Source: Octopus vulgaris (taxonomy: Eukaryota). Taken from it: 64,000 nucleotides of DNA. The notes beneath the pieces are model-generated. The model ran no database searches. It was not told the origin of the DNA and saw only the letters and a program-made list of their open reading frames with translations. Shown one piece after another: positions 8,327 through 29,011 of this stretch. Numbering within the stretch: the stretch's first letter is position 1; every line of letters starts with the position of its first letter. Both the position numbers and the translations under genes were made by a program. The stretch is taken from NCBI GenBank assembly GCA_951406725.2, contig OX597815.1:191084001-191148000 (forward strand). The letters are read 5' to 3'.

Positions 8327-8798
8327 TTATCGTTTAACGTCTGCTTTCCATGCTAGCATGGGTTGGACGATTTGACTGAGGTCTGGTGAACCAGATGGCT
8401 GCACTACGCTCCAATCTGATCTGGCAGAGTTTCTACAGCTGGATGCTCTTCCTAACGCCAACCACTCTGAGAGTGTAGTGGGTGCTTTTACTTGCCACCA
8501 GCATGAGGGCCAGTCAGGCAGTACTAGCAACGGCCACGCTCAAATGGTGCTTTTTATGTGCCACCTGCACAGAAACCAGTCCAGCGGCACTGGTAACAAC
8601 CTCACACAAATGTTTCTTACATATGACACCAGCACAAGTGCTAGTAAGGCGACGCAGATAACGATCACTCTTGAATGGTGTTTTTATGTGCCATCGGCAT
8701 GGAGGCCAGCTTGTTGCTCTGGCAACGATCTCACTTGTATGGTACTCTTAGTGCTCAACTAGCACGGATGCCAGCCATCGAATTTGATTTCTATTCCG

Positions 8799-8800
<2 letters not shown>
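8327..8800 (-). mobile_element. Family C SINE, long form with internal subrepeats
   Basis: Family C tail plus repeated tgccaccggca/ctggcaacga units; same structure as 35928-36500. Confidence 0.85.
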
Positions 8801-8830
<30 letters not shown>

Positions 8831-9462
8831 AATAATAATCCTTTCTACTAAAGGCACAAGGCTTGAAATTTGAGGGGAGAGGGCTAATTGATTACATTGA
8901 CCCCAGTGCTTGACTGGTACTTATTTTATCGATTTTGAAAGGATGAAAGGCAAAGTCAACCCCAGCAGAATTTGAACTCAGAATGTAAAGATGAAATGCT
9001 GCCAGGTGTATTGTCTGACATACAAATGGTTCAACCAGCTCCATCTTTATAATAACAGCAACAATAATAATAATAATAATAGTTTCAAATTTTACCACAA
9101 AGGCAACAGTTTTGGGGGAGGGGATGAGTTGATTACATCAACCCCAGTGCTCAACCAGTACTTATTTTATCAACCCCGAAAGGATGAAAAGCAATGTAAA
9201 CCTTGATGGAATTCACCCAGCACACTAATGATTCTGCCAGCTCGCCGCCTTAATAATAATAATAATCCTTTCTACTAAAGGCACAAGGCATGAAATTTAG
9301 GGGGAGGGGACTAATCGATTACATCGACCCCAGTTTTTCACTGGTACTTTATCGACCCTGAAATGATGAAAGCAAAGTTGACCTTGGTGGAATTTGAACT
9401 CAGAACATAGCAGCAGACAAGCATTTCGCCCAATGTGCTCACGATTCTGCCAGCTCATCACC

Positions 9463-9499
<37 letters not shown>

Positions 9500-9931
9500 T
9501 AAATAGCTGTCATTTGCTGTCCATTTTGTGGTTAAGATTGAGATTATATAATGTCTTAGAATGAAAGATTGAAAGAACCACTAATAAAGATTTGTACGAA
9601 AGTCATTATCTTCCTGCATTCAATTAACTCATTCTTCAAGATCAATTTACTTCTTTCTGACAAATATTCTGTTTCAAATCAGGCATCTTGAATTATCTTT
9701 TCATTGGTATTATCGTTAACAGCCAAATGTATTTAGCACTAATGTAAGTATTAATGTGAGTATATATTTATATATTTACATTATTTACATTTGACAGATA
9801 TTTGTCCTCATCTTGTTTGTTGTTAACATGATTCAGATGATATTCCCTCCAGCCTTCATCAGGTGTCTTGGGGAAATTTCGAACCTGGGTTCTAATTCCT
9901 AAGATATTTTTTCAATGTTATTATTATTATA

Positions 9932-9977
<46 letters not shown>

Positions 9978-10390
9978 CTGGAATCGAACTCAGAATCTTG
10001 GGGTTGGCTGCACTACGCTCCAATCTGATCTGGCAGAGTTTCTACAGCTGGATGCCTTCCTAACGCCAACCACTCTGAGAGTGTGTGGGCATATGCCACC
10101 AGCATGAGGGCCAGTCAGGCAGCTAGCAACGGCCACGCTCAACATGGTCCAAGTTTTATTGCCACCTGCACAGGAACCTGCACTGGTAACGACCTCACAC
10201 AAATCTTACAAAAAAACACCAGGGCACAAGTGCTAGTAAGGCGACGCAGATAACGATCACTCTTGAATGGTGTTTTTACGTGCCATCGGCATGGAGGCCA
10301 GCTTGTTGCTCTGGCAACGATCTCACTTGTATGGTACTCTTAGCGCTCAACTAGCACGGATGCCAGCCATCGAATTTGATTTCTATTCCG

Positions 10391-10434
<44 letters not shown>

Positions 10435-11036
10435 AAGGCACAAGACTTGAAATTTGGGGGAAGGGGGCTAATTGATTACATTGACCCCAGTGCTTGACTG
10501 GTACTTATTTTATCGATTTTAAAAGGATGAAAGGCAAAGTCAACCTCAGCAGAATTTGAACTCAGAACGTAAAGATGAAATGCTGCCAGGTGTATTGTCT
10601 GACATACAAATGGTTCAACCAGTTCCATCTTTATAATAACAACAACAATAATAATAATAATAGTTTCAAATTTTCCCCAACAGTTTGGGGGGAGGGGATG
10701 AGTCGATTACATCAACCCCAGTGCTCAACTAGTACTTATTTTATCAACCCCGAAAGGATGAAAAGCAATGTAAACCTTGATGGAATTCACCCAGCATGCT
10801 AATGATTCTGCCAGCTCGCCGCCTTAATAATAATAATAATCCTTTCTACTAAAGGCACAAGGCATGAAATTTAGGGGGAGGGGACTAATCGATTACATCG
10901 ACCCCAGTTTTTCACTGGTACTTTATCGACCCTGAAATGATGAAAGCAAAGTTGACCTTGGTGGAATTTGAACTCAGAACATAGCAGCAGACAAGCATTT
11001 CGCCCAATGTGCTCACGATTCTGCCAGCTCATCACC

Positions 11037-11070
<34 letters not shown>

Positions 11071-11503
11071 TAAATAGCTGTCATTTGCTGTCCATTTTGT
11101 GGTTAAGATTGAGATTATATAATGTCTTAGAATGAAAGATTGAAAGAACCACTAATAAAGATTTGTACGAAAGTCATTATCTTCCTGCATTCAATTAACT
11201 CATTCTTCAAGATCAATTTACTTCTTTCTGACAAATATTCTGTTTCAAATCAGGCATCTTGAATTATCTTTTCATTGGTATTATCGTTAACAGCCAAATG
11301 TATTTGGCATTAATATAAGTATTAATGTGAGTATATATTTATATATTTACATTATTTACATTTGACGGATATTTGTCCTCATCTTGTTTGTTGTTAACAT
11401 GATTCAGATGATATCCCTCCAGCCTTCATCAGGTGTCTTGGGGAAATTTCGAACCTGGGTTCTAATTCCCTAAGATATTTTTTCAATGTTATTATTATTA
11501 TTA

Positions 11504-11545
<42 letters not shown>
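8396..11545. repeat. ~1.6 kb near-identical tandem duplication (8396-9976 vs 10005-11545)
   Basis: SINEs and unique sequence (gataaatagctgtcatttgctg...taagatattttttcaatg) are repeated at an offset of 1609 falling to 1571. Confidence 0.95.
8838..9465 (-). mobile_element. Three tandem family B SINE copies separated by (AAT)n
   Basis: Repeated cctttctactaaaggcacaagg...gaccccagt...gatgaaa.gcaaagt...ctgccagctc blocks; duplicated at ~10435-11040. Confidence 0.85.
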
Positions 11546-11552
<7 letters not shown>

Positions 11553-11828
11553 TCACTGTCTGGAATCGAACTCAGAATCTTGGGTTAGTAGCCCACACTC
11601 TTAACCACTACGCCATATGCCTGTGGGCATATGGCATAGTGGTTAAGAGCGCGGGCTACTAACCCCAACATTCCAAGTTCGATTCCAGACAGTGACCTGA
11701 ATAATAATCATAACATCAAAAAAAAAAAATACCTTAGGAATGAGAACCAGGGTTCGAAAGTTCCCCAAGACACCTGATGAAGGCTGGAAGGTATATCAGC
11801 TGAAATGTTGTGTTAACAACAAACAAGA
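11382..11828. mobile_element. Palindromic element: head-to-head tRNA-like heads, each arm ending in a Penelope-type hammerhead-bearing tail
   Basis: Centre gccatatgcc-tgtg-ggcatatggc at ~11622; arms are reverse complements. A box TGGCATAGTGG and B box GTTCGATTCC. CTGATGA...GAAA at 11774-11805. Confidence 0.85.
11769..11814 (+). ncRNA. Minimal hammerhead ribozyme motif, C3-G8 core
   Basis: Stem I gacac/gtgtt; CTGATGA; extra A; stem II ggctg/cagct; GAAA-tgtt, probably CpG-decayed from palindromic AACGTT. Confidence 0.65.
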
Positions 11829-28929: not shown

Positions 28930-29011
28930 GTGGATGGTTTAGCTTAATGGTTCAGAGCACTGCGATGCGTAATCACGGAGGTGTGAGTTCAAGTCTCATA
29001 GCCGGCCACCA
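28930..29011 (+). pseudogene. tRNA-like pseudogene or isolated SINE head
   Basis: A box TAGCTTAATGG; T-arm GTGAG-TTCAAGT-CTCAT; pairing ends gtggatggtt/agccggccac; terminal CCA followed by a T run; irregular anticodon arm. Confidence 0.55.

What the first reader, a model, noticed from the sequence alone, without database searches (positions are those of the whole stretch)
11382..11828. Palindromic twin-promoter element: back-to-back tRNA-like heads, each reading out into a hammerhead
Two Pol III-type heads (A box TGGCATAGTGG, B box GTTCGATTCC, anticodon-like arm gggct-ACT-aaccc) diverge from a centre at ~11622. Each is followed by (AAT)n and a Penelope-type tail with CTGATGA (11774 on +; decayed mirror copy at ~11400-11435 on -). 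Inference: this is a tRNA-headed non-autonomous element that ends in a ribozyme rather than a LINE tail. It could be mobilised by Penelope machinery, which is known to generate inverted terminal structures. Read-through transcription would give more than 200 bp of dsRNA.
Basis: partly seen in the sequence, partly recalled or inferred. Interest (0 to 1): 0.7.

Follow-up and report, generated by a model that had tools for sequence, protein, structure and literature searches.

The report
Penelope retroelement with tRNA-like promoter head
This mirror-image repeat is two head-to-head copies of the end of a common Penelope-type jumping gene, a known insertion pattern, but that end begins with a tRNA-like piece that likely serves as the jumping gene's own promoter, which I did not find described for this group.

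Summary
The palindrome is real and the junction recurs (459 exact 22-mer loci). It is not a separate SINE-like element. The head-(AAT)n-hammerhead unit is the terminal repeat (pLTR) of a protein-coding Penelope/Poseidon-type retrotransposon: 27 of 29 endonuclease-selected copies continue into the head, and the 'ribozyme tail' encodes the start of the ORF. Palindromes carry known PLE marks: the tail extension on one arm only (35 of 40, both arms 0), 11-16 bp target duplications (24 of 33), and arms sharing rare variants. Two complete heads are a minority outcome (3 of 48 junction loci). The centre is a native 12-nt self-complementary motif, where 27 of 30 head-bearing copies begin. The part I did not find in print (9 searches; Repbase and Dfam not available) is a tRNA-like A/B-box head as the 5' leader of an autonomous PLE. 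Its ORF lacks T4 terminator runs (0 in 2.3 kb; 2-10 in 10 control ORFs), suggestive of Pol III transcription but null-dependent (P 0.006-0.10); a TATA-like motif allows Pol II. The scan earlier noted a similar fold-back Penelope stub in another genome.

The parts
11349..11621 (-). Left arm: pLTR copy in the element's native orientation (centre reads CACA, a CpG-decayed CACG); ends at the no-tail start site
   Evidence: native context CACG in ORF-attached copies
11626..11828 (+). Right arm: inverted (fold-back) pLTR copy; outer end, tail and target duplication are missing at this locus
11618..11629 (.). 12-nt self-complementary motif TGCC-NNNN-GGCA, native to the PLE about 25 nt after the ORF stop; centre of the palindrome
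   Evidence: hairpin -5.4 kcal/mol as RNA, -2.8 as DNA
11626..11699 (+). tRNA-like head, A box 11632-11642, B box 11677-11686
   Evidence: best host tRNA match Arg(TCG), score 61 vs shuffles 28+-4, max 49
11548..11621 (-). tRNA-like head, A box 11615-11605, B box 11571-11562
11480..11547 (-). (AAT)n spacer between head and ORF start; length varies between copies and often carries later insertions
11700..11729 (+). Short AAT/A-rich spacer of the right arm
11740..11828 (+). Remnant of the first codons of the PLE ORF (putative ATG at 11740), overlapping the hammerhead
   Evidence: tblastn to the N-terminus of relative P0019: L038 E 1.6e-5, window E 0.036; frame continues into the ORF in L139
11769..11814 (+). 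Minimal type I hammerhead (helix I GACAC/GTGTT, core intact, two CpG-type changes in helices II and III); predicted cut after 11809
   Evidence: architecture as in PMC4209133
11393..11437 (-). Decayed hammerhead of the left arm (GAAA and helix III lost)
9811..10005 (-). Partial second copy of the left arm inside a local tandem duplication (about 8500-10002 vs 10101-11584, 94%); not an independent insertion

Best explanation
The palindrome is one insertion of the terminal repeat of a protein-coding Penelope/Poseidon-type retrotransposon, present as two head-to-head copies, and the tRNA-like head is part of that retrotransposon and likely acts as its internal promoter. Shown: ORF end -> 12-nt self-complementary motif -> head -> (AAT)n -> ORF start with hammerhead -> tail is the element's own layout; palindromes have a one-sided tail and 11-16 bp target duplications; most copies begin at the 12-nt motif. 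Inferred: the element's RNA starts at that motif; the RT/endonuclease nicks both target strands 11-16 nt apart and primes two cDNAs at the two internal start sites that define the tail (one per arm); the cDNA that reaches the RNA 5' end folds back or anneals on the 12-nt motif and joins the second cDNA, giving two full heads when both are complete and a 10-25 nt stub plus deletion otherwise. The hammerhead would be a passenger here, since copies extend beyond its cut site. Pol III transcription from the head is my preferred promoter reading (about 0.45), untested.
For: Head follows the endonuclease ORF end in 27 of 29 ORF-selected loci (the query locus left out). Exact ORF-attached context 534 loci vs exact palindromic junction 459. 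RVT_1 hit E 5.8e-8; C-terminus matches Pfam-GIY-YIG-positive proteins, E 9e-13 to 5e-15. Near full-length copy L139: inverted pLTR, centre-deleted direct pLTR, ORF, pLTR, with the tail running into the ORF. Tail on exactly one arm in 35 of 40 loci where both arms reach it, none 5, both 0 (40 of 72 loci scorable). Target duplication in 24 of 33 vs 0.27 (max 2) in 300 permutations. Arms of one locus share non-majority letters at 0.53% of sites vs 0.13+-0.05% (max 0.30%) in 2000 permutations, 37 of 72 loci. Native 5' context ends within 8 nt of the head in 27 of 30 head-selected copies; 3 run into the ORF; none in between. Larger palindromes centred inside the ORF also exist (L142-L144, L209, L249). 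Same structures described in PMC3846280 and PMC8557442; tail = two RT start sites, and hammerhead cleavage not needed in vitro, in PMC11167929. For Pol III: A and B boxes; 0 T4 runs in the 2316-nt column majority and 0.24 per kb in copies, each private to 1-2 copies, vs 2-10 per ORF in 10 control ORFs of equal T content; back-translation expects 4.2-4.7, P(0) 0.006-0.011.
Against: T4 depletion is weak under other nulls: Markov P 0.057-0.059 and own-codon shuffle P 0.10; a third PLE family is also low (0, 1, 3 runs in about 0.85 kb; 14 in 9.1 kb); the family has few Phe codons, as do its relatives. A TATAA lies 34 nt before the head in 17 of 19 scorable ORF-attached copies, which would put a Pol II start at the same place. 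A discrete 5' end is expected from any promoter if RT starts in the 5' pLTR of a full-length RNA. A pure fold-back model predicts that only the fold-back arm is shortened and never gains a tail, but the native arm is the short one in 11 of 30 oriented loci and the tail is on the fold-back arm in 16 of 24. The endonuclease piece had no direct Pfam hit. No tree was built, so the Poseidon label rests on the linker lacking a zinc finger. Shared variants between arms could also come from gene conversion.
Confidence: 0.75

Rival explanations
1. The head is a passive relic (an old SINE or tRNA insertion in the pLTR); the element is transcribed by Pol II from a TATA or internal promoter like other PLEs, and the palindrome is an entirely ordinary pLTR insertion.
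For: TATAA 34 nt upstream of the head in 17 of 19 copies; Penelope has a Pol II-type internal promoter (PMC2377424, abstract); pLTRs with 5' palindromes and TATA/Inr motifs are described (PMC3846280, passages); T4 depletion not significant under two of the nulls; the head also resembles the 5' part of other SINEs in this genome, weakly (nhmmer E 0.008 and above).
Against: Between the common 5' end and the putative ATG there is nothing but the head and (AAT)n; A and B boxes are intact in the family majority; the ORF has the lowest T4 rate of the PLE families sampled; no B box within 1.5 kb after 7 of 7 control ORF ends (not all reached the pLTR).
Confidence: 0.4
2. One reading: pLTR-only copies have become a self-sufficient non-autonomous family, transcribed by Pol III from either head into about 300-nt RNAs and mobilised in trans by the PLE protein.
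For: 27 of 30 head-selected copies lack ORF sequence; any pLTR-only copy keeps promoter boxes and RT start sites; heads preceded by the reversed centre (CGTG), which cannot come from the native context, exist: 61 vs 333, and native-arm-short loci are 11 of 30.
Against: Of 30 reversed-centre loci inspected most are palindromes with a deletion in the other arm; only about 6 look solo (by eye). No diagnostic column separates arm types. pLTR-only copies are already explained by RT starting in the 5' pLTR of full-length RNA (PMC11167929).
Confidence: 0.2
3. The palindrome is a MITE or foldback DNA transposon with terminal inverted repeats.
For: Inverted symmetry; the tail end reads CTG followed often by TA.
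Against: Tail on both arms in 0 of 40; 11-16 bp duplications; ends are retrotransposon ORF sequence.
Confidence: 0.01

Closest known systems
EN+ Penelope-like elements of the Penelope/Poseidon clade: Pen2a_Av and relatives (Arkhipova et al. 2013, PMC3846280, passages), PAc (Frangieh et al. 2024, PMC11167929, parts 1-2 of 4), overview in Craig et al. 2021 (PMC8557442, passages)
   Same: RT plus C-terminal GIY-YIG ORF; pLTR holding the first codons and the hammerhead; inverted pLTR head-to-head; palindrome at the pLTR 5' end; one-sided 30-40 bp tail; target duplication.
   Different: Their pLTRs are described with TATA/Inr or TATA-less Pol II promoters (PMC3846280; PMC2377424 abstract); here the 5' part is a tRNA-like A/B-box head plus (AAT)n, duplications are 11-16 bp, and the ORF lacks T4 runs.
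Minimal hammerheads of metazoan PLEs (Cervera and de la Pena 2014, PMC4209133, parts 1-2 of 4)
   Same: Type I minimal motif with palindromic helix III; that paper notes dual motifs 100-700 bp apart on opposite strands in Schistosoma.
   Different: No tRNA-like head seen in the parts read.
Schistosoma Sm-alpha / Sj-alpha SINE-like elements (PMC6765202 and PMC2770079, passages; primary papers not read)
   Same: Pol III-type promoter joined to a hammerhead in a high-copy repeat.
   Different: Tandem, non-coding, no known coding parent in the passages read; here the unit is the pLTR of a coding element and is inverted.
TRIMp3: Helenus, Ajax, Cassandra (Kojima 2024, PMC10886601, passages)
   Same: Small-RNA-derived Pol III promoter captured in a retroelement's terminal repeat, proposed to arise by SINE insertion.
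   Different: Those are non-autonomous LTR elements, and the paper argues that their autonomous partners must use Pol II; here the head sits in the autonomous element of a different class.
Animal non-LTR retrozymes (PMC7229834, passages; bioRxiv 10.64898/2026.07.22.740005, parts 1-3 of 5, supplements closed)
   Same: Short hammerhead repeats related to pLTRs.
   Different: Defined as tandem arrays; the preprint has no occurrence of 'tRNA' or 'polymerase III' in the search listing.

Membership tests
EN+ Penelope-like element | Single ORF with RT domain | tested here: met
   RVT_1 E 5.8e-8 in L084; near full-length broken ORF in L139
EN+ Penelope-like element | C-terminal GIY-YIG endonuclease | tested here: met
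   No direct Pfam hit; BLASTP to P0066 (Pfam GIY-YIG positive) E 9e-13, to P0062 and P0070 (precomputed GIY-YIG) E 5e-15 and 7e-14
EN+ Penelope-like element | pLTR containing a minimal type I hammerhead and the ORF start | tested here: met
   Core intact in 39 of 63 fully aligned arms, with helix III also intact in 16; coding match to P0019 residues 18-40
EN+ Penelope-like element | Inverted 5' pLTR and one-sided 30-40 bp tail | tested here: met
EN+ Penelope-like element | Target site duplication | tested here: met
   24 of 33, 11-16 bp; absent at the window's own copy, whose right end is lost
Penelope/Poseidon clade | No zinc-finger linker between RT and EN; placement in an RT tree | tested here: inconclusive
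   Linker has no such cysteine motif on inspection, unlike control families; no tree built
tRNA-derived SINE | tRNA-derived head with A and B boxes | tested here: met
   Boxes present; score 61 to host tRNA-Arg(TCG) vs shuffle max 49, but Arg(TCT) 58 and Ala 56, 8 tRNA types compared, so source unresolved
tRNA-derived SINE | Non-autonomous element whose head is absent from the coding partner | tested here: not met
   Head follows the ORF in 27 of 29 ORF-selected loci
tRNA-derived SINE | Transcription by Pol III | not testable with these tools
   Only indirect T4-run statistics
Non-LTR retrozyme / Sm-alpha | Head-to-tail tandem arrays of the hammerhead unit | tested here: inconclusive
   Loci viewed were solo, inverted or ORF-attached, a few partial tandems; no genome-wide array search
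Non-LTR retrozyme / Sm-alpha | Self-cleavage and circular RNA | not testable with these tools
   No assay possible
MITE / TIR transposon | Matching termini and short fixed duplication | tested here: not met

The most novel reading that the evidence does not exclude
An autonomous, protein-coding retrotransposon that captured a tRNA-derived promoter and is transcribed full-length (about 2.6 kb) by RNA polymerase III, with its ORF purged of T4 terminators; every truncated copy keeps promoter and RT start sites, so the element is its own SINE, and head-to-head insertions form twin divergent Pol III promoters.
Probability: 0.25. Interest if true: 0.8.

Novelty: new variant of a known kind. Interest (0 to 1): 0.47.

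Why it matters
The palindrome itself is a known Penelope insertion form. The tRNA-like leader matters because autonomous retrotransposons are assumed to need Pol II (argued for LTR partners in PMC10886601); a Pol III-driven coding element would raise the question of how an uncapped RNA is translated, and gives a concrete route from a PLE to Sm-alpha-like elements. The family also offers hundreds of insertions with a fixed fold-back point, one-sided tail and clear target duplications, a good data set for the unresolved question of how PLE inverted ends form.

Tried and rejected
Rfam and ARAGORN do not call the heads or hammerheads. One search scanned two ORF pieces in the wrong frame and found nothing; repeated in frame. 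The first tail count was inflated by alignment into AT-rich flanks and was replaced by an identity-based count. Expression: no RNA holder listed. Three raw RNA-seq runs laid on a full-length copy gave equal depth on both strands, rising towards the 3' end like genomic copy number, with no pile-up of starts or ends at the head or ribozyme; libraries appear unstranded and are unsuited to short Pol III RNA, so uninformative. On the window locus, reads came from other copies, unique flanks were nearly blank in RNA and also in DNA contigs, and A>G/T>C differences were also in DNA runs, so expression and editing are untested. Reversed-centre test for templating by the second arm: 61 vs 333, but mostly deleted palindromes, inconclusive. 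Source of the head: tRNA or SINE unresolved (only the tRNA types returned were compared). MITE reading rejected. Earlier-findings search by sequence found nothing.

Full report
Observation. The window lies in a 2.8 Gb, 227-contig animal genome; it looks like an octopus by size and repeat content, which is my recalled impression and was not tested. The described motifs are present at the stated places. The left arm extends to 11349; the right arm stops at 11828. The predicted RNA hairpin has 190 pairs. Rfam and ARAGORN do not call the heads.

It is a family. The central 155 bp gave 3644 candidates; all 40 scored places span both heads. An exact 24-mer of the head occurs 2668 times and an exact 22-mer of the junction at 459 loci, reversed controls 0. 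Only 5 of 29 ORF-selected copies carry the exact 24-mer, so heads probably number about ten thousand (inference). Arms differ from their column majority by 5.8%, much of it at CpG. The head is followed by the hammerhead body within 1.5 kb in 26 of 30 head-selected loci.

The unit is the pLTR of a coding element. In 3 of those 30 loci the head sits directly behind an endonuclease ORF end. Searching with that ORF end gave 2880 candidates; 27 of 29 fetched loci (query locus left out) continue into the head, and the exact ORF-attached context occurs at 534 loci. The ORF has an RT domain and a C-terminus similar to GIY-YIG-positive proteins, though with no direct Pfam hit. L139 is near full-length: inverted pLTR, centre-deleted direct pLTR, broken ORF, pLTR. 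The tail runs into the ORF, and the hammerhead region encodes a peptide conserved in relative P0019. So the leader of the ORF is only the 12-nt self-complementary motif, the head and (AAT)n. This refutes the reading 'SINE head plus ribozyme tail, separate from the PLE'.

How the palindrome forms. I analysed 72 junction loci: 48 chosen by the junction pattern and 24 distinct places (6 of its 30 loci were opposite-strand duplicates). Of 40 loci in which both arms reach the outer end, 35 have the roughly 35-nt tail on one arm, 5 on neither, 0 on both (the looser count was discarded). Of 33 scorable one-tail loci, 24 have 11-16 bp target duplications vs 0.27 in permutations, so a palindrome is a single insertion. 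The two arms of a locus share rare variants four times more often than arms of different loci (37 loci; 0.53% vs 0.13%, max 0.30% in 2000 permutations), and no column separates native from fold-back arms: arms are copied afresh from one source each time, or converted later. Two full heads occur in only 3 of the 48 pattern-selected loci; usually the second arm stops after 9-24 nt and resumes further on. Palindromes centred inside the ORF also exist. These are the structures described for PLEs: head-to-head inverted pLTRs, palindromes at the pLTR 5' end, one-sided tail, duplications, with self-priming proposed (PMC3846280, passages; PMC8557442, passages); opposite-strand hammerhead pairs 100-700 bp apart (PMC4209133, parts 1-2); tail bounded by two RT start sites, both target strands extended, ribozyme cleavage dispensable in vitro (PMC11167929, parts 1-2). 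I infer two cDNAs, one from each start site, joined at the 12-nt motif. Against a simple snap-back: the tail is on the fold-back arm in 16 of 24 oriented loci, and the native arm is the short one in 11 of 30. The motif is weak (-2.8 kcal/mol as DNA), too weak in my judgement to stall RT, so the clustering of 27 of 30 5' ends within 8 nt of the head points to a real RNA start.

The head. It has A and B boxes and a tRNA-type loop; the best of 8 host tRNA types is Arg(TCG) (61 vs shuffles 28+-4, max 49), with Arg(TCT) and Ala close, and it weakly resembles other SINE heads in the genome. Pol III stops at T runs (established knowledge), so I counted them. The L139 ORF has 0 in 2318 nt; the column majority of 84 ORF-bearing loci has 0 in 2316 nt (2210 nt covered by three or more copies; a few loci may be repeat fetches of one place), and the 20 runs in 84 kb of copies are each private to 1-2 copies. 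Ten control ORFs of about four other PLE families with the same T content have 2-10 runs in 1.2-2.3 kb. Back-translating 729 aa of the family expects 4.2-4.7 runs, P(0) 0.006-0.011, and the same simulation fits five of eight controls. Against: Markov and own-codon nulls give P 0.06-0.10; the three controls of a third family are also below expectation; a TATAA 34 nt upstream in 17 of 19 copies fits a Pol II start at the same place; Penelope itself uses a Pol II-type internal promoter (PMC2377424, abstract). The evidence is suggestive only. RNA data did not bear on it (see tried and rejected).

Comparison. Works like: a Poseidon-type PLE insertion; all tested PLE features are met, clade by inspection only. 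Not a SINE by the test that the head be absent from the coding partner. Pol III promoter plus hammerhead is known from Sm-alpha (PMC6765202, PMC2770079, passages), and Pol III promoters in terminal repeats from TRIMp3 (PMC10886601, passages), all non-autonomous. Retrozymes as pLTR derivatives: bioRxiv 10.64898/2026.07.22.740005 (parts 1-3; supplements closed) and PMC7229834 (passages). Nine paper searches listed no report of a tRNA-derived head in the pLTR of a coding PLE; PMC13282606 (part 1 and passages) counts octopus Penelope families without describing this; its supplements, Repbase, Dfam and subscription journals were not seen. An earlier scan note (e1-9045321, another genome, seen after my reading was recorded) reached the same fold-back PLE verdict for a similar palindrome.

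Verdict. Observation confirmed; interpretation partly supported. The palindrome is an ordinary product of a known mechanism. The new variant is the tRNA-like leader inside an autonomous PLE; interest 0.47, and 0.8 with probability 0.25 if the element is truly Pol III-transcribed at full length.

Noticed in passing
window 8500-10002 vs 10101-11584: Local tandem duplication of about 1.5 kb at 94% identity that copied part of the left arm.
   Followed up: partly
window 28932-29011: tRNA-like sequence called tRNA-Thr(CGT) by ARAGORN, Rfam 33.7 bits; may be a SINE head or pseudogene.
   Followed up: no
L236-L241, L252 (e.g. G000:C14:26609500-26616500): A young PLE family with many near-identical open frames of 753-782 aa and a cysteine-rich linker (Neptune-like by inspection), often as inverted pairs; no canonical hammerhead pattern within 1.5 kb after the ORF.
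   Followed up: partly
L206, L210, L215, L218, L225, L226, L229: A third, older PLE family (about 80-84% between copies, about 27% protein identity to the studied family) with moderately few T4 runs.
   Followed up: partly
L018, L020, L134 flanks: The (AAT)n spacer is often hit by later insertions, some looking like the 3' end of an R4/Dong-type LINE (label recalled, not tested).
   Followed up: no
L091-L138: Short second arms cluster at 9-24 nt, mode 18-21, then jump to a downstream part of the pLTR, often at short shared words; almost none fall between 25 and 60 nt. Unexplained.
   Followed up: partly
P0019 residues 18-40: The hammerhead-overlapping peptide is conserved in a relative at 57% RT identity, so ribozyme and ORF start have been co-encoded for a long time.
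   Followed up: partly
L151: Cluster of 7 tRNA calls, mostly Cys, within 3 kb.
   Followed up: no
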